DNA of 64,000 nucleotides from Thermoproteota archaeon (GCA_020832905.1 JAJHRG010000001.1:564940-628939), one strand, 5' to 3'; shown: positions 4,664 to 55,225, numbered from the stretch's first letter. Numbers and translations: made by a program. The notes: a model not told the origin generated them from the sequence alone.

Positions 4664-6022
4664 TTGAAAATTTGGCAAGGAGTTGAAGTAGAATACTGTG
4701 TTCCATATATTAATAGAAAAAACTATGTTAATGAATTATTAGAATCACTAAGAAATTATAAAATGCCATTAAAAAATACATCTCCTTTTCTAATGAAAAA
4801 AGATGGAAAATATACACAATTTCTTATTAATGGTGGAAGAGCATATGGAGATATAAGCTTTACACCAGGTGTATATGATATTTTAGAAATAACAACTCCA
4901 GAATGTCCAAATCCATTTTATACTCTTGCATATGAAAAAGCAACAGAAGTTTATGCAAGAATAGCATCAGATGAATTTGAAAGAACATCAGGAATGAGAG
5001 TACATTGTTATAAAATAAGTGTAGTAAAATCTGAATATGAGTATACCACTAGAGGACTTCATGAAAGTTATTTAGTAGAAAGAAAAGCTTTTGAAAATAA
5101 AATTATGGAATTAATTCCTTATTTAGTTATAAGACAAATATTTACAGGAACTGGTGGATATTATTTTGGAAGATTTTTAATATCACCAAGACAAATGTTT
5201 ATAAAATCAGTAGTTGCTGAGAAAATATTTGGAAATTGGCCATTAATTGCAGAAAGAGATGAACCACATGCAGATCCTAAATACAAAAGATTGCAAATTA
5301 CAAATGGAGAAGGAGCAAGAACTGAATGGACAATATTTATGAGACAAGCAATAACATCATATATAATTAAAGCTATTGAACTTGGATTAATAAAAGAATT
5401 ACCAAGAATTAAAGATCCTATTGAAGCTGCAAAATTAATTGCTATATCTCCAGAAGGAGATTGGAGTTTAGAATTAGAAAATGGAAAAGAAATTAAAGCA
5501 TTAGAAATTCTTTCATATTATTTAGAAGGTATAGAAAAATTATTTATGAATGAAGAAATAGATGATTATGATAAATATGCATTAAAAGAATTTAAATTTG
5601 TATTAAATAAATTAGAAGAAGGAGATTTTGAATCATTAAAAAATAGAATAGAATGGATTGTAAAACTTGAAATTTTAGAAAATAATTTTAATAAATATTT
5701 TGAAGGAAATGGAAGCGAAGAAGAAAAAATTATTGCAAATAATCAATTTTGTGCAATAACAGATGGAACTTTTGAAAGAATACAAGAAGAAATGAACTTA
5801 ATTACATTATTAAAAGATGAAGATTTATCAAAAGCAGTTCTATTTCCACCAGAAAATTCTAGAGCATATGCAAGAATAAAAATTGCTCAAATTTTAAAAG
5901 ATAAATTAGATGATATTGGATGGTCTTATATTATTGTAAATAGTAATAGATATCATATGCTAGAATTAGATGGATGGAATGATGAAAAAATTTCAAAATT
6001 TTTAAATGAAATTATTTCTTAA
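4664..6022 (+). CDS. Pup-ligase/deamidase family protein (PafA-like paralog 1)
   Basis: 452 aa with a TTG start. Family blocks present: GVEVEY (GxExE[YF]), RAYGD, GLHESYLV (cf. PafA GCHENYLV), LIPYLVIRQIFTGTGG, ERDEPHADPKYKRLQITNGEG, KDPIEAAK and IEWIVK. Confidence 0.8.
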   Translation: MKIWQGVEVEYCVPYINRKNYVNELLESLRNYKMPLKNTSPFLMKKDGKYTQFLINGGRAYGDISFTPGVYDILEITTPECPNPFYTLAYEKATEVYARIASDEFERTSGMRVHCYKISVVKSEYEYTTRGLHESYLVERKAFENKIMELIPYLVIRQIFTGTGGYYFGRFLISPRQMFIKSVVAEKIFGNWPLIAERDEPHADPKYKRLQITNGEGARTEWTIFMRQAITSYIIKAIELGLIKELPRIKDPIEAAKLIAISPEGDWSLELENGKEIKALEILSYYLEGIEKLFMNEEIDDYDKYALKEFKFVLNKLEEGDFESLKNRIEWIVKLEILENNFNKYFEGNGSEEEKIIANNQFCAITDGTFERIQEEMNLITLLKDEDLSKAVLFPPENSRAYARIKIAQILKDKLDDIGWSYIIVNSNRYHMLELDGWNDEKISKFLNEIIS

Positions 6023-6093: not shown

Positions 6094-7665
6094 ATGAAAA
6101 TATTAAAAGAAATGGCAAGAGGTTGTGAATACGAATTTAGTGTAAATAGATATCCACCAATTCTTCCTGGTATTCAACTTTCAGATATTATAGGAAGAAC
6201 AATACTTGCATTAAAAAATTTAGGATTTATATCTAAAGTAATGTGGAGTGTAGAAGATGAAATTGGAAATTTAACTTATGAACGTGGTTTATTTGATTCT
6301 TGGTTATTTGCAGAAGGACCTTATGAAATTGCTTTTAATGGAATGAGAATATATGATGATGCTCAACATTTAGAATTTTCTACTCCAGTATTTAGAAGTC
6401 CAATTGATGCAGTAGTTTATGATAAAGTTGCTGAAAGATTAGCTTTTTTAGGAATAGAACAAATAAGAAAAACTCATGGAGAATTATATTGTTATAAAAC
6501 TAATAATAGTCTATTAAAAGGATCTTATGGTTATGAAGCAGTAGCATGGGGGACTCATGGATGTTATTGTGTTAGTAGAAGAATTTTTAATTTTGAAAAT
6601 TGGAAAAATGTAGAAAAAATTCTTATTCCCTTCATTATAAGTAGAATTCCATTAATTGGTAGTGGAGGAGTATTACCTATAAGAAATGAATTTTCATTTG
6701 AACCTCCAACAAGTTCAAGATTATGTGGTGATAAAATAATATATGTAATTTCACCAAGAGCAATTTATATAAAACAATTATCATCTATTGATACTACAGT
6801 AGATCGTGGATTTTTAAATCTAAGAGATGAACCACATGCTAATCCTAATAAGTATTGGAGATTACATGATATAAATTTTGAAGCAATAAGAAGTGATTTT
6901 CAAATATTTATTAGAGATGCATTAGAAGTTTTTACATTAAGAGCAATTGAAGAAGGATTATTACAAAATCCACCAATAATTAAAGATCCAATAGAAGCTA
7001 TAAGAAAAGTTTCAATGAATATAAATGAAATTGATCAATTTATTGAATTAGAAGGAAGTAATAAAGCAAGATTACTATCAGATATACTTTCATATTATAT
7101 TTCTGCAATTGAAAAACTAATAGAATTAAGAGGAGATAATGAAGACCATAAAGTTTTTAAGGTTATAGAAAGTGTAATTCAGAAACTAAAAGAAGGATTA
7201 TTTGAATATTTAAATGGAGCTATTGATTGGATTGCAAAAATGATGCTAATAGAAGAATATAATGCTAAAGATATGGATATGGCTATTATATGTAATCAAT
7301 ATGGATTATTAGATGAAAATACAGGTTTTTATGAAGGAAGAATAGAAAAAGGTGATACTTTATTTGATCCTGAATCTTCCTTAGCTTTTCTTGAAGAAGT
7401 ATTTCCTTTTGTAAAATCAATAAAAGAGAAAATAAAGTATGGTATGAATAATCCTCCTACAGATACTAGAGAATATTTAAGAACAAATATTTTAAAAGAA
7501 CATGAATCAGAAATAATAAAAATGAATTGGTGGAAAATTTACTTTAAAGGAGGTTTAATTACTTTAGATGAGCCATTAAGATATGGAAAAGAAGAAAGTG
7601 AAGAAATTTTAAAGATAAAAGACTTAAAAAAATTATCTGAAGTTATAAGAGGTGAAGCTAAATGA
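6094..7665 (+). CDS. Pup-ligase/deamidase family protein (longer, Dop-like paralog 2)
   Basis: 523 aa. Family blocks present: GCEYEF, RIYDDAQHLEFSTP, LIPFIISRIPLIGSGG, LRDEPHANPNKYWRLH, KDPIEAIRK and IDWIAKM. The H-E-N block is diverged (GTHGCYCV). It carries extra insertions and a longer C-terminus than paralog 1. Confidence 0.75.
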   Translation: MKILKEMARGCEYEFSVNRYPPILPGIQLSDIIGRTILALKNLGFISKVMWSVEDEIGNLTYERGLFDSWLFAEGPYEIAFNGMRIYDDAQHLEFSTPVFRSPIDAVVYDKVAERLAFLGIEQIRKTHGELYCYKTNNSLLKGSYGYEAVAWGTHGCYCVSRRIFNFENWKNVEKILIPFIISRIPLIGSGGVLPIRNEFSFEPPTSSRLCGDKIIYVISPRAIYIKQLSSIDTTVDRGFLNLRDEPHANPNKYWRLHDINFEAIRSDFQIFIRDALEVFTLRAIEEGLLQNPPIIKDPIEAIRKVSMNINEIDQFIELEGSNKARLLSDILSYYISAIEKLIELRGDNEDHKVFKVIESVIQKLKEGLFEYLNGAIDWIAKMMLIEEYNAKDMDMAIICNQYGLLDENTGFYEGRIEKGDTLFDPESSLAFLEEVFPFVKSIKEKIKYGMNNPPTDTREYLRTNILKEHESEIIKMNWWKIYFKGGLITLDEPLRYGKEESEEILKIKDLKKLSEVIRGEAK

Positions 7666-22613: not shown

Positions 22614-24299
22614 ATGAGAATCTTAGGTGCTAAAGCAATTGTAGAAGCCTTAAAAAGAGAAAAAGTTGAAGTAATCTTTGGAATCCCTGGTGGTGCAACT
22701 ATTCCTTTTTATGATGCTCTTTATGATAGTGATATAAGACATATATTAGCAAGACATGAACAATGTGCTGCTCATATGGCAGATGGATATGCAAGAGTAA
22801 AAGGAGTACCAGGAGTTTGTACTGCTACTAGTGGACCTGGTGCTACAAATCTTGTTACAGGAATAGCTACAGCATATATGGATAGTTCACCTGTTATTGC
22901 TATTACTGGACAAGTTCCAAGATCTATGATAGGAAAAGATGCATTTCAAGAAGCAGATATTGTTGGAATAGTAACTCCAATTACAAAATATGCTTTTCAA
23001 ATTACTTCAGCATCACAAATACCAGATGCAATAAGAACTGCATTTATAATTGCAAATACTAATAGAAAAGGACCTGTTCTAATAGACATACCAAAAGATG
23101 TACAACTTGAAGAAGTAGATTTTGATTATTCTGAAAGAATTATAATAAAAGGATATGTAGTAAGAAGTGGAGAACCACATCCATATTCTATAAAAAGAGC
23201 ACTTGGACTAATAATGAATGCTGAAAGACCTTTAATTATTGCAGGAGGAGGAGTTATTGCATCCAATGCAAGTGAAGAATTAATAAAATTTTCTGAATTA
23301 ATATTAGCACCTGTAGTTACAACATTAATGGGAAAAGGAGCAATTCCTGAAAATCATCCTCTTTGTTTAGGAATGATAGGAATGCATGGAAGAGTAGAAG
23401 CTAATAAGGCTGTAGAAGAAGCTGATGTTATAATAGCTATTGGAACAAGATTTGGTGATAGAACTACAGGAAAACTTGAAGAATTTGCAAAAAATGCAAG
23501 AATTATTCATATTGATATAGATCCTGCAGAAATAGGAAAAAATGTAAAAGTTGATGTACCTATTGTAGCAGATGCAAAAAAAGCTTTATCAGTATTATAC
23601 TCTAAGCTAATTGAAGTTGGATATTCTAAAAAAGAAAGTGAATGGATAAAAAGAGTAAATTATTTGAAGGAATATTATGCTCCAAATTATGAAGAAAAAG
23701 GAGAAGGATTAAAACCATCTAAATTAATGAAAATTTTAAGAAATATAATACCAGGAAAATCTATTATTACTACAGGTGTTGGACAAAATCAAATGTGGGC
23801 TGCATTACATTTTAAAGTTTTAGAACCTAGAACCTTCATAACATCAGGAGGATTAGGAGCAATGGGTTTTGGATTACCAGCAGCAATAGGTGCAAAAGTA
23901 GCAGCACCTGATAGACCTGTATTTGATATTGATGGAGATGGAAGTTTCTTAATGACAGAACAAGATTTAGCTACTGCAGTATCAGAAGCTATACCAATTA
24001 CTGTAATAATTTTAAGAAATAAAGCTTTGGGAATGGTAAGACAGTGGCAATGTCTATTTTGTAATAAGAGATATGCTTATACTGATCTTGGTAATACTCC
24101 AGATTTTGTAAAACTTGCAGAAGCTTATGGAGCTGAAGGAATAAGAGTAGAAAGTTATGAAGAATTTGAAACTGTAATAAGAAGAAGTCTAAATGCAGAA
24201 ATGCCTGTAGTAATTGATATACCAATATCTCCTGATGAAAAAGTATTACCAATGATTCCACCTGGAGGTAGCTATAAGGAGGTAATTTGGTATGGTTAA
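22614..24299 (+). CDS. ilvB: acetolactate synthase large subunit
   Basis: 561-aa TPP enzyme. Blocks GIPGGA, GPGATNLVTG and the TPP motif GDGSFLMT...N. Confidence 0.92.
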   Translation: MRILGAKAIVEALKREKVEVIFGIPGGATIPFYDALYDSDIRHILARHEQCAAHMADGYARVKGVPGVCTATSGPGATNLVTGIATAYMDSSPVIAITGQVPRSMIGKDAFQEADIVGIVTPITKYAFQITSASQIPDAIRTAFIIANTNRKGPVLIDIPKDVQLEEVDFDYSERIIIKGYVVRSGEPHPYSIKRALGLIMNAERPLIIAGGGVIASNASEELIKFSELILAPVVTTLMGKGAIPENHPLCLGMIGMHGRVEANKAVEEADVIIAIGTRFGDRTTGKLEEFAKNARIIHIDIDPAEIGKNVKVDVPIVADAKKALSVLYSKLIEVGYSKKESEWIKRVNYLKEYYAPNYEEKGEGLKPSKLMKILRNIIPGKSIITTGVGQNQMWAALHFKVLEPRTFITSGGLGAMGFGLPAAIGAKVAAPDRPVFDIDGDGSFLMTEQDLATAVSEAIPITVIILRNKALGMVRQWQCLFCNKRYAYTDLGNTPDFVKLAEAYGAEGIRVESYEEFETVIRRSLNAEMPVVIDIPISPDEKVLPMIPPGGSYKEVIWYG

Positions 24300-24789
24300 T
24301 GATTTTCATATAATATCTGCACTTGTTGAAGATAAACCAGGAGTTTTATTCAGAGTAACATCATTAATAAGAAGAAGAAACTTCAATATAAATACTATAA
24401 CTGTAGGTGCAACTGAAAAAGAAGGAATTTCAAGAATTACATTAACAATGAGAGGAGATGAAAAAACTGTTGAGCAACTTATAAAACAATTAAGTAAAAT
24501 TCCTGATGTTATAAAAATAAGTGAAGTTAAGCCAGAGGAATCTGTATATAGAGAATTAGCTATTATTAGAGTTTCAGCAGAAGATCCTTTAAAGAGATCA
24601 GATATAATAAATTATGTTAATGTTTTTAGAGGAAGAATAGTAGATGTATCAAAGGATTCTCTTACTATAGAAATAATAGGAAGACCAACAAAAATTAATG
24701 CTTTTATAGAAATAATAAAAGGATTTGGAATAATAGAAATGGCAAGAACAGGTATTGTAGCATTACCAAGAAAATTAAAGACAGAATAA
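24292..24789 (+). CDS. ilvN: acetolactate synthase small (regulatory, ACT) subunit
   Basis: [31 protein letters not shown] domain. Its start overlaps the ilvB stop. Confidence 0.9.
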
Positions 24790-24820
24790 TTTTTTAAGTA
24801 AGTATGATTTTTATAAAATT

Positions 24821-25804
24821 ATGGTAGAAATATACAGAGATGGAGATTTATCTGTTTTAAAGAATAAAACCATAGGCATTTTAGGCTATGGAAGCCAAGG
24901 AAGACATCAAGCACTTAATATGAGAGATAGTGGACTAAATGTAATAATAGGATTAAGAAAAGGAAGTAAGTCATGGCAAAAAGCAAAAGAAGATGGTTTT
25001 GAAGTATATGAAGTAGCAGAAGTCTCAAAAATATCTGATTTTATAATATTTCTAATACCAGATGTAGAACAACCAGCTGTATATAATAAAGAAGTTGCAC
25101 CATATATGAAAGATGGAAAAATTCTTGGTTTCTCTCATGGATTTAATATACATTTTGGATTAATAAAACCACCAAAAACTGTAGATGTAATTATGGTTGC
25201 TCCAAAAAGTCCAGGAGTTAGAGTACGTGAAGAATTTCTTAAAGGCTCAGGAGTTCCAGCTTTAGTAGCAGTTTATCAAGATGCAACTGGAAAAGCTTGG
25301 GATGAAGTACTTGCATGGGCAAAAGCAATAGGTTCTACAAGAATTGGAGTAATAAAAACAACATTTAAAGAAGAAACAGAAACAGATTTATTTGGAGAAC
25401 AATGTGTACTAGTTGGAGGTTTAATGGAACTTATAAAGAAAGCATTTGAAGTTCTTATTGAAAATGGATATCAACCAGAAATAGCATATTTTGAAGTATT
25501 GAATGAAGCTAAACTCATTATGGATTTAATATATCAAGGAGGATTAGAGAATATGCTAAAAGGTGTAAGTGATACTGCAAAATATGGAGGATTAGTTTAT
25601 GGTCCAAAAGTAATAGATGATCATGTAAAATCAAATATGTATAAAATACTTGAAAATATAACAAGTGGAAGATTTACAAAAGAGTGGATGGGAAATCCTG
25701 AAGAAAGCTATAAGAAATTAAATGAATTAATGAATAAAATTAAAGAACATCCAATAGAAAAAACAGGAAAAGAATTAAGAAAATTAATAGGAATTGAAAA
25801 ATAA
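24821..25804 (+). CDS. ilvC: ketol-acid reductoisomerase
   Basis: [17 protein letters not shown], class I length (327 aa), and the [11 protein letters not shown] block. Confidence 0.93.
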
Positions 25805-25827
25805 GAAAAAAGAGGGAGAGCAAATGG

Positions 25828-27417
25828 GTGGTTATCAAATCCAAAGTAGTTGAAATATATGATACTACATTACGTGATGGTGCTCAATCAAAAGATGTAA
25901 TTTTTTCACTTCAAGATAAATTAAGAATTACATCAAAACTTGATGAATTTGGAGTACATTACATAGAAGGAGGATGGCCTGGTTCAAATCCAAAGGATGA
26001 AGAATATTTTAAAAAAGTAAAAGAGCTTTCATTAGAAAATTCTGAAATTGTTGCTTTTGGAAGTACTAGAAGACCTAATCTAAAAGTTCATGAGGATTCA
26101 AATATTAATGCATTAATAAAAAGTGATGTAAGAACTGTTACAATATTTGGAAAGAGTTGGGATTTACATGTAAAAAGTGTATTAAATACAACATTAGAAG
26201 AAAATCTTAATATGATTTTTGAATCTATTTCTTATCTTAAAGAACATGGATTAAGAGTATTTTTTGATGCTGAACATTTTTATGATGGCTTTAAGAATAA
26301 TAGGAATTATGCTATAGATGTTTTAAAAACAGCAGTTGAAGCTAAAGCTGATGTAATAATATTATGTGATACAAATGGAGGTACATTACCTCATGAATTT
26401 TTTGAAATAACAAAGGAAGTAAAATCTCTTATAAATATACCAATAGGTGTACATTGTCATAATGATTCTGGTGTAGCAGTAGCAAATTCCTTACTTGGTG
26501 TAATTGCTGGAGCAATACAAATACAAGGAACAATAAATGGAATTGGTGAAAGATGTGGTAATGCTGATATATGTCAAATAATACCTGCTTTAGAATTAAA
26601 AATGGGTATTCGTGCATTAAAAACACCAAAAGAAAAATTAAGATATTTAAAGCAACTTTCTCTATATCTATATGAAGTTCTTCATATGAAACCTAATCCA
26701 TATCAACCTTATGTTGGTGAAAATGCTTTTGCACATAAAGGAGGAGTACATGTAGATGCTGTATTAAAGAATAGAATTGCTTATGAACATATTCCACCTG
26801 AAGAAGTAGGAAATATAAGATTATTTTCTGTATCTGAATTATCAGGAAGAGCAAATATTATTGCAAAAGCAAAAGAATTTGGATTTGATATTAAAAAAGA
26901 TGATCCTGTTGTTACTCGTATTTTAAATAAAATAAAAGAATTAGAATATAAAGGCTATCATTTAGAAGGAGCTAATGGAACTTTATACTTAATAATAGCA
27001 AAAGAACTTGGACTATATAAAAAATTATTTCATGTAATAAAATGGCGTACAATAAGTGAATCATATAATGGTAATACATTTGCAGAAAGTTCTATTAAAA
27101 TAAAAGTTGGTGATAAGGAAATATTTGTTATAGCAGAAGGAAATGGACCAGTAAATGCACAAGATAGAGCTATAAGAAAGGCAATGATAGAATTCTTTCC
27201 TGAAATTGAAAAAGTTCAATTAATAAATTACAAAGTATCAATTGCAGATACTGCTCAAGGTACAGCTTCATCTGTTAGAACATTTATAGAATTTACAGAT
27301 GGAAAAACTAATTGGATTACTGTAGGTGTTTCTACAAATATATTAGAAGCAAGTAAAGATGCTCTTATTGATGGATATGATTACTATTTGCAAAGATTAA
27401 GAAGTAATAGTAAATAG
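25828..27417 (+). CDS. cimA: citramalate synthase / 2-isopropylmalate synthase family (long form with C-terminal LeuA-dimer-type domain)
   Basis: GTG start. YDTTLRDGAQ, HCHNDSGVAVANS, 529 aa, with a C-terminal regulatory domain resembling the citramalate-synthase clade. Confidence 0.72.
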   Translation: MVIKSKVVEIYDTTLRDGAQSKDVIFSLQDKLRITSKLDEFGVHYIEGGWPGSNPKDEEYFKKVKELSLENSEIVAFGSTRRPNLKVHEDSNINALIKSDVRTVTIFGKSWDLHVKSVLNTTLEENLNMIFESISYLKEHGLRVFFDAEHFYDGFKNNRNYAIDVLKTAVEAKADVIILCDTNGGTLPHEFFEITKEVKSLINIPIGVHCHNDSGVAVANSLLGVIAGAIQIQGTINGIGERCGNADICQIIPALELKMGIRALKTPKEKLRYLKQLSLYLYEVLHMKPNPYQPYVGENAFAHKGGVHVDAVLKNRIAYEHIPPEEVGNIRLFSVSELSGRANIIAKAKEFGFDIKKDDPVVTRILNKIKELEYKGYHLEGANGTLYLIIAKELGLYKKLFHVIKWRTISESYNGNTFAESSIKIKVGDKEIFVIAEGNGPVNAQDRAIRKAMIEFFPEIEKVQLINYKVSIADTAQGTASSVRTFIEFTDGKTNWITVGVSTNILEASKDALIDGYDYYLQRLRSNSK

Positions 27418-27463: not shown

Positions 27464-27709
27464 ATGAGTGATTTAAAACAATACATAGAAGAGACAATAT
27501 ATAAAATACTAATAGAAAATCTTAAGAAAGGAAATTTTTCTGCAAATCTTAAAATAGAAATAGATATGCCAATAGAAATAAAAGGAGTAAAAGGAAGAAT
27601 AGTAGGTGAAATTACAATTGGAGATACTTTAAAAGAAGTAAAAATAAATAAAACTGAAGAGGTTAATTTAAATGAAATTGAAAATATATTAAAATCTCTT
27701 GGAGTATAA
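27464..27709 (+). CDS. hypothetical protein
   Basis: 81-aa ORF. No motif. Confidence 0.4.
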   Translation: MSDLKQYIEETIYKILIENLKKGNFSANLKIEIDMPIEIKGVKGRIVGEITIGDTLKEVKINKTEEVNLNEIENILKSLGV

Positions 27710-27768
27710 TAAGAGACAAATTTTTAAGATTTACTTCCCTTTATATTATTTGGAGAAAATAATTTGCA

Positions 27769-28578
27769 ATGAAAATCATTAACTTATTATTACTAAGTCT
27801 ATTATTTTCACTTATACTAGCTTATCCTATATTAGCTCAATCTAATAATATGTACATAAAACTTCAAAAATTTACAATTTATGATATTAATCGTGATTTT
27901 ATATACATAGAATATTTAGGAGAAGAAGATATTATAGTTTTAATTGTAAAATCAGATTCTAATTTAGATATAGTAAAACAAAGTATCGGTATTGGTTATG
28001 GTAGTATTACAATACATATTAAAAATACTTCATATAAATTAGGATCATGTATAATTGCTTTATTCTCTACAAAATCCTTTTTACTAAATATATCTATGAG
28101 AATGGGAGAAATACCACTACAAACTCAAACAATTTCTGTACCTGCTAATATTACATTACAAATGGAAATACCAATAGAATATGGTGGTTATCAACAGCCA
28201 ATATATACTATTACTAATGTTTCATATACTCCATATTTTCCAATATGGACTCTTTTAACATATGCTATAATATTACCAATGTTTATTATAACAGGATATT
28301 TAGATAAAAACTCATTGAAAATTATGAGAAAACGTTGGACACAATTAGATACATTTGCCATTATAATAAGATATGCTTTTTATGCTTTTTTAGTAATATT
28401 CATTATAGTAACTATTGAAATTGTAGTAGAATACATATTATCTAGACTTAATATTTATGCAATAAGTTTACATATAGGAGATTGGTTTATCTCATGTATT
28501 TTATTTTCTATATTTACTATAATATATGGAATAGGAAAATGGAGGGGAATATTTGAAAATGTTGATGGAGAAGAGTGA
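27769..28578 (+). CDS. signal-peptide plus C-terminal multi-TM membrane protein
   Basis: N-terminal signal-like MKIINLLLLSLLFSLILAYPILA, an extracytoplasmic ~130-aa domain, then 3-4 TM helices. Its 3' end overlaps the AAA-Lon gene by 26 nt. Confidence 0.6.
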   Translation: MKIINLLLLSLLFSLILAYPILAQSNNMYIKLQKFTIYDINRDFIYIEYLGEEDIIVLIVKSDSNLDIVKQSIGIGYGSITIHIKNTSYKLGSCIIALFSTKSFLLNISMRMGEIPLQTQTISVPANITLQMEIPIEYGGYQQPIYTITNVSYTPYFPIWTLLTYAIILPMFIITGYLDKNSLKIMRKRWTQLDTFAIIIRYAFYAFLVIFIIVTIEIVVEYILSRLNIYAISLHIGDWFISCILFSIFTIIYGIGKWRGIFENVDGEE

Positions 28579-31267
28579 AGATTATTGGTGGTGGATTAAA
28601 AGACCTATTTTAAGAAAATTATTATGTTTACCATTATATTTAGCTAATAGAGAATATAGAAGATGGAGAAATGCAAGATTAAATCCAAGAATTATTAAGA
28701 AAAAATTAGCAGAAATAGATAAAAAATTTCCAAAAAAGAAAGAAGATCTTATTGGAAGAGATAAAGAATATCAATTGATAATGAGTGCAATTGGTTATCA
28801 TGTTATAAGAGATCCTTCACTATTAAATATATTTAAGGGAGCACCTCCACCAAAATTCTTTATACTTAAGGGTACAACAGGTACTGGAAAAACATTACTT
28901 GCAGAAGTTTGTATAAGAGATGCTATAGAATATGGAATAAGTAAGGGAGTAAATGTACAACCAATAGTTGTTATGGGAAGTGATATATTTAATCCATTAT
29001 ATGGACAATCAGTTATTAATTTATCATATATATTTAGAAAAGCAAAGGATACTCCAAGTATAATATTCTTTGATGAATTTCAAAGCATAGGTATACGTGT
29101 AGAAAGACCAATGTATGGTGCAGATAGAGAAGATATGAGAGTACAAGATGCATTTATAGAGCATATTAATAAAATACTAAATACACCTCAAAGAACTATT
29201 GTTATTGCTGCTACAAATAAATTTGAAAGTATTAGAGAAGATATTAGAAGAAGAGCATATGTAATTGATTTAGATCAGAATATTACAAGAGAAATGCTTC
29301 TTGCAGTTCTTAAAGCTGAGTTAGAAAAATATGGATGGACACATTTATCACCTAATGAAGTTTTAACAGTATTAGAAAAAGCTGTAAGTACATATAGACA
29401 AACACAACTTACACCTTTTGATATAATTGATGCATGTAATAGAGTTAGAAGTAAAAAAATAGAACCTTTAAGAGAAAAGTTTTTCAAAAAGATGATATTT
29501 AGTAAAAAAACTACTTCTGATGATTTGAAGTTATTAGTAACAATAGATGATTTTAAGTTAGTTGCAAGAGAGTTAAGAGGATATACAGAACAAGAAAAAA
29601 GCGATGAAGTTATGGCTTCAGTATTAAGAATAAAACCAGCTGTTAGCTATAAAGATATTGGAGGACTTTTTGGAATAAAGGAAAAACTATTTAAAATAAT
29701 ATCTCTAAGTCTTTCTCCTGAATTAGCAAGTAAGTTAAACTGGGTTCCACCAAAAGGCTTTTTACTATGGGGAGAACCTGGTTGTGGAAAAACATATCTT
29801 TCAAAAGCAATTGCAAAAGAAAATAATGCAACATTCTTTTATGTTCCTGCAGCTCAACTTTTAATTAATGCAAAATGGGTTGGAGAACCTGAGAAAAATG
29901 TAAGAGATTTATTTGCACTTGCAAGAAGACATGCACCAAGTATAATATTTTTTGATGAATTTGATGTTATTGCTGGAAAAAGAAGAGGAGATCCTGTAAG
30001 TGATAGATTAACTGCACAAATATTAACAGAACTAGATGGTTTACAGCCATTAGAGAATGTAATAGTAATAGCAGCAACAAATAGATTAGATGCAATTGAT
30101 GAAGCAATAATTAATAGATTTGAACCATATGTAATAGAAATTCCCTTACCAAGAAATGATGCAGAACGTTTAGATATTATAAAGGTTCATTTAAGACATT
30201 ATATTGCTCATCTTCATCCTGAAGTTACTCCTGAGAAAGTATTAAATATACTAAAAAAACATAAAGTAGTTTCTCCAAGAGTAGTTAGTGAAATTATAAG
30301 AGAAGCAAATAGATTAAGATCACAAGAAGTTAATGCAGCAATAGAAATTACTAGAAATAAAGATAGATTAGCAGAAATTTACAATCTTTATAGAGAAGAA
30401 ATTGAAAGATTAAAAGAAGTTTTAGGTGCTTTAGATTATGAAGTACTAAAAGAAGTTAAACCAGAAACCTATAAAATAAGACTTTATCATTTTGAAAAAG
30501 CTGCTGAAGAACTTGAAAGTGAAATTGAAAAAGAAATAATGGATGCTCAGGAAAGTATGATTTATGAGAAACTTAATCCTGGTGTAGCATTAGGTCTTGC
30601 TACAGATCCTCAAGGTAGAAAAGGAGTAATACTAATAGTTGAATGTGCATCAAAACCAAATGGTAGTGGTAAAATTACAGTAACAGGAGCAGCAAAAACT
30701 GCAGTTATAGGTCCTGGTACAACAGTTGAAGATGTAAGTGTTATTGAAAGTGCTACTAATGTCATAGAGTTTATTAAGAGATATATCTATGAAAAACTAG
30801 GAATAGATATTTCAAATTATGATTTTACATTTCAAGTTATAAGTCCACTTGAGGGAGCACCAGGAATGGGAGTAAGTGGTCCAAGTCTTGGTCTTGCTTT
30901 TAGTGTAGCTGCTATATCTGAACTTGCAGGAATAGAAGGAAGAAAAGATGTAGTTATGAGTGGAAAAGGTGATATAAAGGGAAATGTTGGTCCTGTAGGA
31001 GGAATGAGTTGGCGTGGATCAGGAAAAATTTTAGCTGCAATTCAAACAAAAAGAATAAAGATTAAAAAATTTATAATTCCAAAGTGGAATTATGAGCATT
31101 CTCCTGATGAAATAAATATACTTAAAGAAGAAGGTATTGAAGTTATACCTGTTGAAAAGCAAGTAGAAGCATGGCTTAATGTATTCTCAATAACTGAAGA
31201 AGAATTACTAAATAGAATTGCTAAAAATATTGAATTAAAGTCTAATATTAAAGCAATATTAAGGTAA
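28553..31267 (+). CDS. tandem AAA+ ATPase fused to a C-terminal Lon (S16) protease domain
   Basis: TTG start after GGAGGGG. AAA-1 has GTTGTGKT / IIFFDEF. AAA-2 has GEPGCGKT / IIFFDEFD with classical-clade sensor blocks. Lon_C has GVALGLA, ITVTGAA, GVSGPSLGLA (catalytic Ser) and GSGKILAA (catalytic Lys). Confidence 0.8.
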   Translation: MKMLMEKSEDYWWWIKRPILRKLLCLPLYLANREYRRWRNARLNPRIIKKKLAEIDKKFPKKKEDLIGRDKEYQLIMSAIGYHVIRDPSLLNIFKGAPPPKFFILKGTTGTGKTLLAEVCIRDAIEYGISKGVNVQPIVVMGSDIFNPLYGQSVINLSYIFRKAKDTPSIIFFDEFQSIGIRVERPMYGADREDMRVQDAFIEHINKILNTPQRTIVIAATNKFESIREDIRRRAYVIDLDQNITREMLLAVLKAELEKYGWTHLSPNEVLTVLEKAVSTYRQTQLTPFDIIDACNRVRSKKIEPLREKFFKKMIFSKKTTSDDLKLLVTIDDFKLVARELRGYTEQEKSDEVMASVLRIKPAVSYKDIGGLFGIKEKLFKIISLSLSPELASKLNWVPPKGFLLWGEPGCGKTYLSKAIAKENNATFFYVPAAQLLINAKWVGEPEKNVRDLFALARRHAPSIIFFDEFDVIAGKRRGDPVSDRLTAQILTELDGLQPLENVIVIAATNRLDAIDEAIINRFEPYVIEIPLPRNDAERLDIIKVHLRHYIAHLHPEVTPEKVLNILKKHKVVSPRVVSEIIREANRLRSQEVNAAIEITRNKDRLAEIYNLYREEIERLKEVLGALDYEVLKEVKPETYKIRLYHFEKAAEELESEIEKEIMDAQESMIYEKLNPGVALGLATDPQGRKGVILIVECASKPNGSGKITVTGAAKTAVIGPGTTVEDVSVIESATNVIEFIKRYIYEKLGIDISNYDFTFQVISPLEGAPGMGVSGPSLGLAFSVAAISELAGIEGRKDVVMSGKGDIKGNVGPVGGMSWRGSGKILAAIQTKRIKIKKFIIPKWNYEHSPDEINILKEEGIEVIPVEKQVEAWLNVFSITEEELLNRIAKNIELKSNIKAILR

Positions 31268-49520: not shown

Positions 49521-50372
49521 ATGGAAGATGAACATATAATAGAAGCTTTAGGAAAAACAAGAATTATCATAAGAAATGGAAAAATAGTAGAAATTGGAGA
49601 ACCAATGATAAGATCATGTCCATTAGCAAAAAGATTTTTAAAACCAGTAATAAATTTTACAAAAGATGAAATTAGAGATAATATAGAATTTCGTATTAAA
49701 GAATTTGGAATGTGTACTAAGAATAGAAAAGTAATTCTTAAGGAAGATTTTGTTCCATTTGGTTCTTCTGAATTAATAAGCTTTGGAATTAGAAATTCAT
49801 TAATTGATAGTGCTGTAATAGTATGTGATGGAGCTGGTACAGTTATTACAAATAATCCATGGCTTGTACAGGGAATAGGTGGAAGAATGTCAGGATTAAT
49901 AAAAACAAGTCCAATAAAAGAAGTTATTGAAAGAATAGAAAGAGAAGATGGTATTGTATTAGATAAGGAAAAAGCAATAATTAATCAAATTGCTGGTGTA
50001 GAGTTAGCATATAAAATGGGATTTAAAAATGTAGCAGTTACTGTTATAAATGCAGATGATGCTGAAATTATAAGATCAAAATTTAAAAACACATGGATAT
50101 TTGCAACACATCTTACAGGAATTTCAAAAGAAGAAGCTGAAAGATTAACAAATGTTTGTGATTTTATAACTGCATGTGCATCAAAATGGATTCGTGAAAT
50201 TTCAAGTAAAAAAGCAATAATGCAAGCAGGAATTTCTATACCAGTATTTATAATGAGTAAAAGAGGAAGAGATTTATTATTAGATAAATTAAAAGAATTA
50301 AATCAACAATTTATTGTAAAAATAGGTAATCTTCCATATATTAAAGAAAATCAACCTTATCCTCTTGTATGA
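49521..50372 (+). CDS. conserved archaeal protein, possibly DUF2099 (methanogenesis-marker-8-like) family
   Basis: 283 aa. The CPLAKRF, VCDGAGTVI and VQGIGGRMSGL blocks match my recollection of DUF2099. This is not verified. Confidence 0.4.
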   Translation: MEDEHIIEALGKTRIIIRNGKIVEIGEPMIRSCPLAKRFLKPVINFTKDEIRDNIEFRIKEFGMCTKNRKVILKEDFVPFGSSELISFGIRNSLIDSAVIVCDGAGTVITNNPWLVQGIGGRMSGLIKTSPIKEVIERIEREDGIVLDKEKAIINQIAGVELAYKMGFKNVAVTVINADDAEIIRSKFKNTWIFATHLTGISKEEAERLTNVCDFITACASKWIREISSKKAIMQAGISIPVFIMSKRGRDLLLDKLKELNQQFIVKIGNLPYIKENQPYPLV

Positions 50373-53710: not shown

Positions 53711-55225
53711 TTGTCTGTTAAAATTAACAATATGGTTGAAATTTTAAAAATTATAGAGCAAAATCCATGGTGGAAGGGAAAAGAATTTCCATTTTGGAAA
53801 TATGATGAACAATTAAATAATTATGAAAATGCTAAATTTAAAATTAAAAGAAATTTTATTTCTTCTCAATGTAATAATATATATTCTATTTCAGGTCCTA
53901 GACAATCTGGTAAAACCACATGGATGAAATTAATGATTCTTAATATTTTAAAATCAAAAGAAGTTAATCCTTCTAGTATTTGTTATTTTTCATGTGATAC
54001 TCTTCTTTCAAGATCAAGAAAAGAATTGAGAAAAGTAATAGATTATTTCTTAGAAAAATTAGAAAAATTTAATGAAGGTTATATATTTTTAGATGAAATA
54101 AGTTATGTTCATGATTGGGCTTTTGAAATAAAAAATCTTGTAGATATGGGAAAAATTAGTAAAATTCATTTCTTTATTTCAGGATCACCTTTAGGTATAA
54201 GAGAAATAGAATTTCTTCCAGGTAGACATATAGAAGGCAATAGATATTTCTTAAAACCACTTAGCTTTAGAGAATTTATTTTAAATTTAGATGAAAACTC
54301 TATTCCTTTATTAACTAAAAATGAAAAAATTAAAGGAGGAATGATGATTTTAAAGAAAAAATTAAGAGAGAATTATTTAACATTAGAAGAATCTTTTGAG
54401 TTAATAAAAGAAAAACTTGAATTAATTCTACCATTTAAAGATGTATTAGATTTTTTATTAGGCTTCTATTTAAGAACTGGAGGATTTCCAAATTCAATAG
54501 AAAATTATCTTAGAGAGGGAGTAATAGATAAGAGAAATTATGAAACAATAGTTAATATTATTTTAAGTGATATTTCTAAGCGTAATAAATCAGAAGATAT
54601 AGCAAAGCAAATTTTTTATGCAATAATAAAAAGAATGGGATCATCTTATGATTTTAGAGCATTAACAAAAGATACTGAAGAAGGAATTAATGTTAATACA
54701 ATTATAGATTATTTAAAGATATTTGAAGATTCTTTTTTAATAAAAATTCTTTATTCTTATGATTTTGAGAAAAAACAAAAAAGACCAAAAGGAAATAAAA
54801 AAATTTACTTTACAGATCCATTTTTATTTTATTCAATATTAAGTTGGATAGAAGGAAAAAATGGTTTTGAAGTTACAGAAAATATATTATCTCAAGAAGA
54901 AAAAATCTCTATAATTTTAGAGTCTATTGTATTTTCTTCATTAGAAAGAATAAAAGAAATTCCTTTAATAAGAGATAGCTCAACTTTTCTTTGGTTTTAC
55001 TATGATAAGAGAAGAGAAATTGATTTTATCTTTAAGAGAGAAGATGGAAATTATTTAGGAATTGAAGTAAAATATAAGCCTGAAGTTTCTAAAAGAATAG
55101 AAATTAATAAAGTAAAAAATTATATTATTCTCAGTAAGGATACTTTTGAATTAGAAGATAGAATTGTAATTGTTCCTATTAGTATATTTCTTGCTCTTAT
55201 AAAGAGTTCTGATTTTCATTTATAA
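53711..55225 (+). CDS. AAA-superfamily ATPase with C-terminal DUF4143-type (endonuclease-like) domain
   Basis: NPWW, Walker A GPRQSGKTT, Walker B IFLDEI, C-terminal EIDFI...GIEVK. The start is likelier the ATG at 53741. Confidence 0.82.
   Translation: MSVKINNMVEILKIIEQNPWWKGKEFPFWKYDEQLNNYENAKFKIKRNFISSQCNNIYSISGPRQSGKTTWMKLMILNILKSKEVNPSSICYFSCDTLLSRSRKELRKVIDYFLEKLEKFNEGYIFLDEISYVHDWAFEIKNLVDMGKISKIHFFISGSPLGIREIEFLPGRHIEGNRYFLKPLSFREFILNLDENSIPLLTKNEKIKGGMMILKKKLRENYLTLEESFELIKEKLELILPFKDVLDFLLGFYLRTGGFPNSIENYLREGVIDKRNYETIVNIILSDISKRNKSEDIAKQIFYAIIKRMGSSYDFRALTKDTEEGINVNTIIDYLKIFEDSFLIKILYSYDFEKKQKRPKGNKKIYFTDPFLFYSILSWIEGKNGFEVTENILSQEEKISIILESIVFSSLERIKEIPLIRDSSTFLWFYYDKRREIDFIFKREDGNYLGIEVKYKPEVSKRIEINKVKNYIILSKDTFELEDRIVIVPISIFLALIKSSDFHL

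What the first reader, a model, noticed from the sequence alone, without database searches (positions are those of the whole stretch)
27769..31267. Tandem-AAA (Cdc48-like) ATPase fused to a Lon protease domain, coupled to a membrane protein
The 904-aa ORF contains two complete classical AAA modules (GTTGTGKT/IIFFDEF and GEPGCGKT/IIFFDEFD). These are followed by a coiled linker and a Lon_C domain with the Ser (GPSLG) and Lys (GKILAA) dyad in place.

Canonical LonA and LonB each have a single AAA+ module, and archaeal LonB carries a TM insert. Here the membrane element is instead a separate upstream protein (signal peptide plus 3-4 TM) whose gene overlaps the protease gene by 26 nt.

A two-ring unfoldase hard-wired to a protease is an unusual architecture. 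It could be the degradation arm for tagged proteins, although it lies 20 kb from the Pup-like cassette, so any link is pure inference.
Basis: partly seen in the sequence, partly recalled or inferred. Interest (0 to 1): 0.65.

Follow-up and report, generated by a model that had tools for sequence, protein, structure and literature searches.

The report
Membrane-tethered double-AAA Lon protease of archaea
This archaeal gene pair appears to encode an undescribed type of ATP-driven protein shredder: two stacked Cdc48-type motor rings fused to a Lon protease and held at the membrane by a small three-helix partner. It is conserved from TACK to Asgard archaea, where only the proteasome and LonB were thought to do this job.

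Summary
ORF 28553..31267 (904 aa) has two classical AAA modules, with Walker A/B, aromatic pore loops, sensor-1 and Arg fingers invariant in 69 homologues. They are followed by a Lon S16 domain whose Ser778/Lys825 align to the catalytic dyad of A. fulgidus LonB.

The upstream ORF 27769..28578 overlaps it by 26 nt. It encodes a signal peptide, a glycosylation-sequon-bearing beta-sandwich ectodomain and 3 TM helices.

The main new result is a Rosetta-stone link. The 3-TM module lies immediately upstream of the protease gene in 45 related loci, and is fused to the protease N-terminus in 4 Asgard loci (Odin, Hod, Prometh). The two proteins are therefore parts of one membrane-anchored machine.

It is not LonA, LonB, LonC, LonBA, Cdc48 or FtsH, because defining features of each fail. 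All members come from uncultured archaea (Methanomethylicia, Nezha, Sulfolobales MAGs, Bathyarchaeia, Nitrososphaerales, Asgard) and are named only 'AAA family ATPase'. Eight literature searches found no description.

The best reading is an FtsH-like, membrane-facing, processive ATP-dependent protease. The suggested link to the Pup-ligase genes 20 kb away has no support.

The parts
27740..27747 (+). TATA-box-like TTTATATT about 25 nt upstream of the partner gene's ATG. It is a possible archaeal promoter for a (near-)leaderless two-gene transcript.
   Evidence: Read directly from the sequence. Not tested: the promoter scanner covers only the bacterial sigma-70 type. Inference only.
27769..28578 (+). 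Membrane partner gene (269 aa): signal peptide, ectodomain and 3-TM anchor module.
   Evidence: ORF found. No Pfam, NCBIfam or PADLOC family matches. AF2 model has pLDDT 68. Homologues sit upstream of the protease gene in 45 loci.
27769..27840 (+). Signal peptide (aa 1-24, MKIINLLLLSLLFSLILAYPILAQ).
   Evidence: Sequence. The AF2 model has an N-terminal helix at aa 3-22. No signal-peptide predictor was run.
27841..28233 (+). Extracellular all-beta (Ig-like sandwich) ectodomain, aa 25-155. It carries four N-x-S/T sequons (N86, N107, N127, N150). N127 is invariant in the wider partner alignment, and N86 is invariant among close homologues.
   Evidence: AF2 predicts about 10 strands. Foldseek gives only weak matches to generic beta-sandwich folds (chagasin-like inhibitors, cohesin, PapD-like, S-layer domains). 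Sequons; invariance. The domain is absent in Bathyarchaeia subfamily-1 partners and in the Asgard fusions.
28234..28575 (+). Conserved 3-TM anchor module with an acidic cytoplasmic tail (aa 156-269). Conserved motifs are W-x-x-x-D-[ST]-x-A-L-x-x-R-Y-x-F-Y and Y-G-I-[AG]-K-W-R-G-x-[YF]-[ED]-x-[IV]-D-E-E.
   Evidence: BLASTP of the window partner against the Odin fused protein N-terminus gives E 9e-6; the Bathyarchaeia 124-aa partner against the Promethearchaeota N-terminus gives E 6e-15. An HMM of the module hits 49 of 50 loci whose 5' region is present, at E 1e-18 to 1e-45, and hits nothing else in those loci.
28541..28547 (+). Shine-Dalgarno-like GGAGGGG inside the partner gene, encoded by the conserved W-R-G. 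It lies 5-11 nt upstream of the TTG/ATG starts of the protease gene, which suggests translational coupling.
   Evidence: Sequence. The equivalent GGAGAGG / AGAGGGA / GGAGGGGG occurs at the same place in Nezha, Bathyarchaeia and Sulfolobales loci.
28553..31267 (+). AAA-AAA-Lon protease gene (904 aa).
28580..28732 (+). Family-specific N-terminal Trp-rich, basic helical region (aa 10-60, DYWWWIKRPILRKLL...EYRRWRNARL). In the Asgard fusions it directly follows TM3. It is the presumed docking or interfacial element.
   Evidence: W13, W38 and neighbouring residues are invariant or nearly invariant. The motif persists in divergent clusters. AF2 predicts helices at pLDDT about 80. The docking role is inferred.
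28745..29542 (+). D1, a classical-clade AAA module (aa about 65-330). Features: Walker A G107-T114, pore-loop Y150-G151, Walker B D174-E175, sensor-1 N222, R232-R234.
   Evidence: Pfam AAA stretch. PDB Cdc48/VAT/p97 at E 7e-20. CDC48 profile D1 region. Residues invariant in 69 sequences.
29615..30232 (+). D2, a classical-clade AAA module (aa about 355-560). Features: Walker A G407-T414, pore-loop W442-V-G444, Walker B D468-E469, sensor-1 N510, Arg R522.
   Evidence: PAN model 176 bits and CDC48 D2 region 169 bits. VAT/p97 D2 at E 5e-80 for the whole protein. Residues invariant.
30233..30559 (+). Helical region (aa about 561-669): the D2 lid helices plus an extra helical linker leading to the protease.
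   Evidence: AF2 secondary structure shows helices H560-570, 575-601, 603-612, 614-624, 629-633, 644-653 and 657-669.
30560..31162 (+). Lon (MEROPS S16) proteolytic domain, aa 670-870. The catalytic Ser778 codon is at 30884-30886 and the Lys825 codon at 31025-31027.
   Evidence: Pfam Lon_C at E 5e-14. Best solved relative is the A. fulgidus LonB P-domain at E 3.5e-11, with Ser and Lys aligned. G776-P777-S778-x-G780 is invariant and G824-K825 nearly invariant.

Best explanation
The two overlapping genes encode one machine: a membrane-tethered, ATP-dependent, processive protease.

Proposed assembly and mechanism:
- The 904-aa subunit is expected to form a hexamer of three stacked rings: D1 AAA, D2 AAA and a Lon Ser-Lys protease chamber.
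- Its Trp-rich, basic N-terminus sits directly under the membrane. It is held there by the 3-TM partner, whose acidic C-terminal tail ends exactly where the protease N-terminus begins. In Asgard archaea the two are one polypeptide.
- Substrates are most plausibly misassembled or damaged membrane proteins, and perhaps membrane-proximal cytosolic proteins.
- They would be engaged at the membrane-facing D1 pore, pulled through both rings by the aromatic pore loops using ATP hydrolysis in both rings, and delivered into the Lon chamber for cleavage.
- Functionally this would make it an archaeal counterpart of bacterial FtsH: membrane anchor, then classical AAA, then protease. It has an extra motor ring and a serine rather than a zinc protease, and it would be a second membrane AAA protease beside LonB.
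- The optional glycosylated beta-sandwich ectodomain, present in some lineages only, would be an accessory on the outer face, comparable in position to FtsH's periplasmic domain.

What is shown:
- Domain composition and intact catalytic motifs across the family.
- Obligate gene adjacency or fusion with the 3-TM module.
- Topology-consistent features.
- Wide conservation.

What is inferred:
- Hexameric stacking.
- Physical contact of the partner tail with the N-terminal region.
- Direction of threading.
- Substrate class.
For: Domain composition:
- Two classical AAA modules plus Lon_C.
- Every ATPase and protease catalytic motif is invariant or nearly so in 69 homologues spanning 37-92% identity. 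This includes aromatic pore loops in both rings.
- The Ser/Lys dyad aligns to LonB's.
- The AF2 model has pLDDT 82.5, and its D1-D2 region matches p97/Cdc48 over about 610 columns at E 1e-29.

Membrane link:
- The 3-TM module lies directly upstream, as a separate gene, in 45 loci. In subfamily 1 it is always offset +1 with a 20-26 nt overlap and a conserved internal SD-like GGAGG.
- It is fused N-terminally in 4 Asgard loci.
- The one remaining locus (Heimdall, L054) has an analogous gene encoding signal peptide + ectodomain + TM.

Topology:
- A signal peptide, and an ectodomain with conserved N-x-S/T sequons.
- A K/R-rich TM1-TM2 loop.
- Together these place the C-terminal tail in the cytoplasm, next to the AAA N-terminus.

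Housekeeping character:
- 60-63% identity between Methanomethylicia and Asgard.
- Other neighbours vary between loci.
- One homologue carries an intein in D2.

Context: archaea lack FtsH and are described as having only the proteasome and LonB as ATP-dependent proteases (PMC4343526).
Against: - No experimental data exist for any member, and all members come from uncultured organisms.
- Inter-domain geometry in the monomer model is uncertain (pTM 0.53). No oligomer or complex could be modelled.
- The substrate class is pure inference by analogy with FtsH and LonB.
- Some divergent clusters (P0139, P0140, P0147, P0156, P0160) lack the Trp-rich N-terminal motif and have long soluble-looking N-terminal extensions. 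Not all family members need be membrane-tethered.
- I could not test whether these genomes also keep canonical LonB, that is, whether this protease is redundant with LonB or replaces it.
- D2 has only one conserved Arg in the second-region-of-homology position.
Confidence: 0.65

Rival explanations
1. A regulatory rather than quality-control device. The ectodomain and TM partner would sense an envelope or membrane state and gate the AAA-Lon. The protease would then degrade one or a few specific regulators or enzymes, as FtsH does with sigma32 and LpxC, or as H. volcanii LonB does with phytoene synthase.
For: - The partner has a conserved extracellular domain in several lineages.
- The partner evolves much faster than the protease: 49-52% against 83-85% identity at the same phylogenetic distance. 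This is as expected for an adaptor or sensor.
- LonB and FtsH are known to combine both roles (PMC4343526, PMC9263693).
Against: - The ectodomain is dispensable. It is missing in Bathyarchaeia subfamily-1 partners (124-127 aa) and in the Asgard fusions.
- No regulator gene is conserved nearby.
- This reading is not exclusive of the main explanation.
Confidence: 0.15
2. One reading: a Cdc48-like unfoldase-protease that degrades proteins tagged by the Pup-ligase-like system encoded 20 kb upstream.
For: - Two Pup_ligase-family genes lie in the same window.
- In actinobacteria a classical AAA (Mpa/ARC) feeds pupylated proteins to a protease. The pup_AAA model scores 142 bits on D2.
Against: - There is no coiled-coil/OB or any other tag-binding N-domain.
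- The N-terminus is the membrane-tether region.
- No Pup-ligase homologue lies within +-5 kb in about 55 other loci.
- The pup_AAA score is lower than the PAN, CDC48 and FtsH scores, so the similarity is generic.
- The family is found in lineages where nothing suggests pupylation.
Confidence: 0.04
3. An anti-virus or abortive-infection module of the AAA-ATPase + protease type, like IetAS.
For: PADLOC IetA models hit the AAA modules (E 5.5e-40), as does the NCBIfam anti-phage ATPase IteA model.
Against: - The hits are weaker than those to PAN and CDC48, and cover only generic AAA cores.
- No defence genes are nearby.
- Sequence conservation across phyla is very high, and the identity gradient looks vertical.
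- The neighbours are housekeeping genes: ilv/leu genes and a Na+/H+ antiporter here.
Confidence: 0.03
4. In TACK archaea the two ORFs are joined by programmed +1 ribosomal frameshifting at the overlap. This would yield a single Asgard-like polypeptide, possibly alongside the separate products.
For: - In subfamily 1 the offset is always +1.
- Skipping one base at the partner's stop codon (GAG-U-GAA-GAU-UAU-UGG) would give ...NVDGEE-EDYWWW. This matches the junction of the fused Asgard proteins (...DEEVYGFKPWW).
Against: - No conserved slippery sequence.
- A conserved SD-like element and in-frame start codons sit at the right distance, which fits ordinary translational coupling.
- In subfamily 2 the two genes are in frames 0, +1 or +2, separated by a stop codon and a gap, so they are clearly separate there.
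Confidence: 0.05

Closest known systems
Archaeal LonB (MEROPS S16; e.g. A. fulgidus, T. onnurineus, H. volcanii LonB)
   Same: - Membrane-bound ATP-dependent Ser-Lys protease of archaea.
- Its protease domain is the closest solved relative (AfLonB P-domain, E 3.5e-11, catalytic residues aligned).
- The LonB family models are the best NCBIfam hits to the C-terminal third.
   Different: - LonB has one AAA+ module of the Lon/HCLR type. Here there are two classical-clade AAA modules, which score 176 bits to PAN, while the Lon models do not cover them convincingly.
- The LonB membrane anchor is inserted between Walker A and Walker B. Here it is a separate or N-terminally fused 3-TM module.
- LonB has Asp before the catalytic Ser and 42 residues between Ser and Lys (PMC9569914). 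Here it is Pro, with 46 residues (48 in subfamily 2).
- The LonB model scores 61 bits against a cut-off of 517.
FtsH (bacterial/organellar membrane AAA protease)
   Same: - Same order of parts along the membrane normal: TM anchor with an extracytoplasmic domain, then classical-clade AAA, then a protease chamber in the same polypeptide.
- It is absent from archaea (PMC4343526), so the niche is open.
- The FtsH model scores 127 bits on D2.
   Different: - FtsH has one AAA ring and an M41 zinc-metalloprotease.
- Here there are two rings and an S16 serine protease.
- The anchor is a separate subunit in most lineages.
- No Peptidase_M41 hit.
Cdc48/VAT/p97, and the archaeal Cdc48-20S proteasome pairing
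   Same: - Tandem classical AAA D1-D2.
- Best structural match over about 610 columns, and best sequence match in the PDB.
- D1 aligns to the D1 region of the CDC48 profile and D2 to its D2 region.
   Different: - No N-domain: the profile alignment starts at position 169-179.
- No C-terminal HbYX-type tail; the protein ends ...KAILR.
- The protease is covalently attached rather than docked.
- It is membrane-tethered.
- It scores 214 bits against a cut-off of 803.
ClpA/ClpC-ClpP and other two-ring unfoldase + protease machines
   Same: Two stacked ATPase rings feed a self-compartmentalised serine protease.
   Different: - Clp ATPases belong to a different AAA+ clade.
- Their protease is a separate heptameric-ring protein.
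- They are soluble.
- This comparison rests on general knowledge and was not tested here.
LonA / LonC / LonBA
   Same: The S16 protease domain. As in LonA, Pro precedes the catalytic Ser (GPS).
   Different: - No LON N-domain or HI(CC) domain.
- There are two AAA modules instead of one, and they belong to a different clade.
- The endopeptidase La model scores 63 bits against a cut-off of 608.

Membership tests
Lon protease superfamily (MEROPS S16) | Lon_C proteolytic domain recognised by the family profile | tested here: met
   Pfam PF05362 scores 52.8 bits against a gathering score of 21.1, over aa 670-869. All 9 divergent cluster representatives tested also have Lon_C.
Lon protease superfamily (MEROPS S16) | Catalytic Ser-Lys dyad in place | tested here: met
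   S778 and K825 align to the catalytic Ser and Lys of the AfLonB P-domain. They are invariant or nearly invariant in 69 sequences.
Lon protease superfamily (MEROPS S16) | Exactly 42 residues between catalytic Ser and Lys (stated for LonA and LonB in PMC9569914) | tested here: not met
   46 residues in 51 sequences and 48 in 17 sequences.
Lon protease superfamily (MEROPS S16) | [quoted passage not shown] | tested here: not met
   There are two AAA modules, both closest to PAN, CDC48 and FtsH. D2 scores 176 bits to PAN and D1 47 bits to CDC48. When D2 is scanned alone, no Lon model appears among its hits.
LonB (archaeal) | Membrane-anchoring insertion between Walker A and Walker B of the AAA+ module | tested here: not met
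   Walker A to Walker B is about 60 residues in both D1 (113 to 174) and D2 (413 to 468), with no hydrophobic insert. The TM helices are in the upstream protein.
LonB (archaeal) | Asp immediately before the catalytic Ser | tested here: not met
   G-P-S is invariant. The criterion comes from PMC9569914.
LonB (archaeal) | Score above the curated cut-off of the LonB family model | tested here: not met
   TIGR00764 scores 60.9 bits against a cut-off of 516.6.
LonA | N-terminal LON substrate-binding domain plus an inserted coiled-coil domain; Pro before the catalytic Ser | tested here: not met
   No LON-domain hit in Pfam. TIGR00763 scores 62.9 bits against a cut-off of 608. Only the Pro-Ser feature is shared.
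Cdc48/VAT/p97 | Tandem classical AAA D1-D2 | tested here: met
   Pfam AAA x2. Foldseek against p97 gives E 1e-29 over about 610 columns.
Cdc48/VAT/p97 | N-terminal double-psi-barrel / beta-clam N-domain | tested here: not met
   Only about 60 helical residues precede D1. The CDC48 profile is matched from position 169 onward.
Cdc48/VAT/p97 | Score above the curated family cut-off | tested here: not met
   TIGR01243 scores 214 bits against a cut-off of 802.65.
Cdc48/PAN proteasome activators | C-terminal HbYX-type proteasome-docking tail (criterion from general knowledge) | tested here: not met
   The AAA part is followed by about 345 more residues, and the protein ends ...NIKAILR.
FtsH | Single AAA module followed by an M41 zinc-metalloprotease with HEXXH | tested here: not met
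   No Peptidase_M41 hit. The FtsH model scores 154 bits against a cut-off of 600 and covers only D2.
FtsH | N-terminal transmembrane anchor with an extracytoplasmic domain | tested here: inconclusive
   An analogous anchor exists, but with 3 TM helices. It is in a separate subunit, or fused in Asgard, and the ectodomain precedes TM1 rather than lying between TM1 and TM2. It is analogous, not homologous.
Hexameric ring-stack AAA protease (functional class) | Assembly into a hexamer with a continuous axial channel, and ATP-dependent proteolysis | not testable with these tools
   Only a monomer model could be made. Biochemistry or cryo-EM is needed.

The most novel reading that the evidence does not exclude
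This may be a third, previously unrecognised class of archaeal ATP-dependent protease. It would act as a dedicated dislocase-protease that extracts proteins from the membrane with a Cdc48-type double ring and destroys them on the spot. It is ancestral to TACK + Asgard archaea, and in Asgard it is a single membrane-anchored polypeptide.

If so, membrane-coupled Cdc48-type extraction (the logic of eukaryotic ERAD and mitochondria-associated degradation) would predate eukaryotes in the archaeal lineage, there hard-wired to a Lon protease rather than handed to the proteasome.
Probability: 0.3. Interest if true: 0.85.

Novelty: new variant of a known kind. Interest (0 to 1): 0.72.

Why it matters
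[quoted passage not shown] Current Lon classifications (A, B, C, BA) all assume one Lon-type AAA+ module per chain (PMC9569914).

This family breaks both statements:
- It joins a classical-clade, Cdc48-like double motor to a Lon protease.
- It is tethered to the membrane by a dedicated 3-TM subunit.
- It is conserved at 60-70% identity from Methanomethylicia, Nezha and Sulfolobales-like MAGs through Bathyarchaeia to Odin-, Hod-, Prometh- and Heimdallarchaeia.

What it offers:
- A natural, single-chain 'unfoldase x2 + protease' for mechanistic and structural work.
- A candidate for membrane-protein quality control in major uncultured archaeal lineages.
- A clear fusion/fission example for inferring protein complexes.
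- A data point on how Cdc48-type motors were coupled to membranes before eukaryotes.

Tried and rejected
- Profile search for more partner homologues with a 12-sequence alignment. It returned only 6 proteins, because the candidate list was saturated by hydrophobic words. The partner MSA for AF2 therefore stayed shallow (8 sequences, pLDDT 68).
- Foldseek search of the partner. It gave only weak, generic beta-sandwich matches, so the ectodomain gets no functional assignment.
- The afdb50 library was unavailable.
- The bacterial sigma-70 promoter and terminator scan is not applicable to an archaeon. It found fewer promoter-like sites than the shuffles and no terminators.
- PADLOC gave only generic AAA similarity to IetA and TRIP13, so the defence reading was rejected.
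- Eight full-text literature searches and checks inside candidate papers found no description of an AAA-AAA-Lon architecture. A 2008 survey of Lon_C architectures lists LON-AAA-Lon_C, Sigma54_activat-AAA-Lon_C, Mg_chelatase-Lon_C and others, but not this one.
- Pup-ligase linkage was tested by phmmer against all ORFs of the fetched loci. There were no hits outside the window.
- Origin of D1 and D2. They are 33% identical to each other, and each aligns to the corresponding Cdc48 domain. The data do not decide between an internal duplication and a common origin with the Cdc48 tandem.
- Programmed +1 frameshifting was considered and judged unlikely (see rival explanations).

Full report

Yes. The window has a 904-aa ORF at 28553..31267 (+, TTG start). 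A 269-aa ORF at 27769..28578 (+) overlaps it by exactly 26 nt.

- Pfam finds the classical AAA domain PF00004 in two separate stretches (E 1.5e-55). It also finds the Lon proteolytic domain PF05362 at aa 670-869 (52.8 bits against a gathering score of 21.1).
D1 has GTTGTGKT and IIFFDEF. D2 has GEPGCGKT and IIFFDEF. The Lon domain has SGPSLG and GSGKILA.
- The weaker first module, scanned alone, is still recognised as classical AAA. It matches the D1 region of the CDC48 profile at E 1e-12 and Cdc48/p97/VAT chains in the PDB at E about 7e-20. Its Tyr150-Gly151 lies on the aromatic pore-loop position of Cdc48 D2.
- The C-terminal third is most similar to the crystallised protease domain of A. fulgidus LonB (E 3.5e-11). 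Ser778 and Lys825 sit on the catalytic Ser and Lys of that enzyme.
- An AlphaFold2 model built on 69 homologues has mean pLDDT 82.5. It shows two alpha/beta + lid AAA modules, a helical connector (aa about 560-669) and a Lon-type alpha/beta domain. Its D1-D2 part matches p97/Cdc48 structures over about 610 columns (Foldseek E 1e-29).

**2. What organism, and how widespread is it?**

- The window is about 27% G+C. Its closest relatives are MAGs of Methanomethylicia ('Verstraetearchaeota'): 92% identity for the protein, and 91% for locus L007 from isolate WYZ-LMO11.
- Full-length homologues at 60-85% identity occur in several lineages. These are Methanomethylicia, Nezhaarchaeota, Sulfolobales-labelled MAGs, Bathyarchaeia, and the Asgard lineages Odin-, Hod- and Promethearchaeota.
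- A second subfamily (about 38% identity, about 930 aa) is common in soil Bathyarchaeia. A third occurs in a Heimdallarchaeota MAG.
- An exhaustive HMMER search with only the C-terminal 349 residues found 31 clusters (50%-identity level) at E <= 1e-10. Many of these were fragments. Nine more-divergent full-length representatives, taken from the listed hits (two of them just above that threshold), all have AAA x2 + Lon_C.
- One of these carries an intein in D2. Another, from marine Nitrososphaerales, has an extra C-terminal BSP-peptidase-like domain.
- Every source name is just 'AAA family ATPase', 'SpoVK/Ycf46/Vps4 family' or 'hypothetical'. No member comes from a cultured, studied organism.

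**3. Are the catalytic elements conserved?**

In the 69-sequence alignment (37-92% identity to the window protein), these residues are invariant or nearly so:

- D1: Walker A (G107, G110, G112, K113), pore loop (Y150, G151, S153), Walker B (D174, E175), and the triple Arg R232-R234.
- D2: Walker A (G407...K413-T414), pore loop ([WY]-x-G444), Walker B (D468, E469), sensor-1 N510, and R522.
- Lon: G776-P777-S778-x-G780 and G824-K825.

Both rings therefore look hydrolysis-competent and both carry aromatic pore loops. This fits a processive translocase rather than a degenerate scaffold ring.

**4. The membrane partner: the main new result**

- The upstream protein has no Pfam, NCBIfam or PADLOC family. 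AF2 (pLDDT 68) predicts a signal-peptide helix, an all-beta ectodomain (aa about 27-151) and three long helices at 159-187, 192-226 and 236-258.
- The ectodomain has four N-x-S/T sequons. N127 is invariant in the wider partner alignment and N86 among close homologues. The TM1-TM2 loop is K/R-rich. The N-terminal domain is therefore outside and the acidic C-terminal tail (...KWRGIFENVDGEE) is inside.
- The Asgard homologues are about 100 residues longer at the N-terminus, and that extension is homologous to the partner's 3-TM module. BLASTP of the Bathyarchaeia partner against the Promethearchaeota N-terminus gives E 6e-15. The window partner against Odin gives E 9e-6. In both cases the alignment ends at the shared ...Y-[ED]-x-[IVA]-D-E-[EQ] tail, just before the P-W-W motif that opens the protease in the split forms.
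- An HMM of the module was searched against all ORFs of all fetched loci.
  - It hit an ORF ending at the protease start in 45 loci.
  - It hit the protease's own N-terminus in 4 Asgard loci.
  - It hit nothing else.
  - Hits in loci not used for training had E 1e-18 to 1e-43.
- The one complete locus without a hit (Heimdall, L054) has an overlapping upstream gene of 309 aa with the same plan of signal peptide + ectodomain + TM helices.
- The ectodomain is optional. Bathyarchaeia subfamily-1 partners are 124-127 aa, consisting of the 3-TM module only.
- In subfamily 1 the two genes are always offset by +1 and overlap by 20-26 nt. The conserved W-R-G codons spell a Shine-Dalgarno-like GGAGG 5-11 nt before the protease start. 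This is the pattern of translational coupling of two subunits.
- In subfamily 2 the frames vary (0, +1, +2) with an intervening stop codon, so the genes are truly separate there.

This fusion/fission pattern plus near-universal adjacency is strong genomic evidence that the two products form one complex.

**5. How it most likely works**

*Shown:* composition, intact motifs, topology-consistent features, and obligate linkage to a TM module whose cytoplasmic tail abuts the protease N-terminus.

*Inferred from established knowledge of classical AAA proteins and Lon proteases (hexameric rings, hand-over-hand threading by pore loops, Ser-Lys chamber):*

- A hexamer with three tiers (D1, D2, Lon) hangs from 18 TM helices.
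- The family-specific Trp-rich, basic N-terminal helices (aa 10-60, pLDDT about 80) lie at the membrane interface.
- The D1 pore faces the membrane.
- Substrates, most plausibly membrane proteins, are pulled out, unfolded through two rings and cleaved in the Lon chamber.

This is the FtsH layout with an extra motor ring and a different protease. FtsH is absent from archaea, whose only known ATP-dependent proteases are the proteasome and LonB (PMC4343526). I put this explanation at about 0.65. A more regulatory role for the same machine is the main rival, at about 0.15.

**6.

Two Pup_ligase-family genes are indeed present at 4664..6022 and 6094..7665. That is interesting in its own right for an archaeon. 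But nothing connects them to this protease:

- There is no tag-binding N-domain.
- No Pup-ligase homologue lies within +-5 kb in about 55 other loci.
- The pup_AAA model scores below the PAN, CDC48 and FtsH models.

**7. Comparison with known families**

- **Lon.** Criteria from PMC9569914: all Lons (A, B, C, BA) have one ATPase domain. LonB has its membrane anchor between Walker A and B, and Asp before the catalytic Ser. LonA and LonB have 42 residues between Ser and Lys.
  - Here there are two ATPase modules of the classical clade. D2 scores 176 bits to PAN, and no Lon model covers the ATPase part when D2 is scanned alone.
  - The anchor is outside the AAA modules.
  - Pro precedes the Ser, and the Ser-Lys spacing is 46 or 48 residues.
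- **Cdc48/VAT.** The N-domain and a C-terminal proteasome-docking tail are missing. The family model scores 214 bits against a cut-off of 803.
- **FtsH.** There is no M41 domain.

So the protein works like a membrane AAA protease but is not a member of LonA/B/C/BA, Cdc48 or FtsH. No solved structure has this architecture. No NCBIfam model reaches its cut-off. A 2008 survey of Lon_C architectures does not list it. Eight full-text searches found no description. The literature library is incomplete, because subscription journals are missing, so prior mention elsewhere cannot be excluded.

**8. Verdict**

The finding is a new variant of a known kind: a new AAA-protease architecture built from known modules with a dedicated, previously unannotated membrane subunit. 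It is widely and strongly conserved in TACK and Asgard archaea and entirely uncharacterised. Interest is 0.72. The main caveats are that function is inferred from sequence and genomic context only, and that the relation to LonB in the same genomes could not be tested.

Noticed in passing
window 4664..6022 (+) and 6094..7665 (+): Two tandem paralogous genes (452 and 523 aa) both match Pfam Pup_ligase PF03136 (E 1e-59 and 6e-54) in what is evidently a Methanomethylicia archaeon. They match each other at about E 1e-35. PafA/Dop-like enzymes in an archaeon deserve separate study. No link to the AAA-Lon gene was found.
   Followed up: partly
P0158 (1261 aa, from the representative library): A divergent family member carries an intein (Intein_splicing + LAGLIDADG_3 hits, aa about 569-876) inserted after the D2 Walker region. 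Inteins usually sit in conserved sites of important proteins.
   Followed up: no
P0153 cluster (1120 aa; marine Nitrososphaerales MAGs, Tara): This subfamily has an additional C-terminal domain that matches PF04450 (BSP, 'peptidase of plants and bacteria') after the Lon domain. That would be a second putative peptidase on the same chain.
   Followed up: no
P0139, P0140, P0147, P0156, P0160: Some divergent AAA-AAA-Lon clusters lack the Trp-rich N-terminal motif. Instead they have 140-250-residue, charged, apparently soluble N-terminal extensions. P0140 also has a degenerate D1 Walker A. These may be non-membrane variants. Their taxonomy is unknown.
   Followed up: no
L032 (DATKOK010000097.1, 'Methylomirabilota bacterium'), L041 ('bacterium' Centralia_MAG_577), P0148 ('Nealsonbacteria'): A few family members sit in MAGs labelled bacterial. 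L032 and L041 have archaeal-type partners (125-aa and 267-aa) and are close to Bathyarchaeia sequences. Contig mis-binning seems more likely than bacterial occurrence.
   Followed up: partly
window 27464..27709 (+): An 81-aa ORF with no Pfam or PADLOC match lies between the leuA/cimA-like gene and the partner gene. Whether it is a real gene or part of the module is unknown.
   Followed up: partly
[not shown]
   Followed up: no
window 53711..55225 (+) and 49521..50372 (+): A 504-aa AAA_14 + DUF4143 ATPase and a DUF2099 protein ('conserved in archaea'). These are unrelated to the finding.
   Followed up: no
window 22614..27417 (+): Directly upstream lies a run of genes whose translations read like branched-chain amino-acid biosynthesis enzymes: acetolactate synthase large and small subunits, ketol-acid reductoisomerase, and an isopropylmalate/citramalate synthase-like protein. 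This is judged from the translations only; no profile search was run. The neighbourhood is housekeeping and is not conserved in other loci.
   Followed up: no
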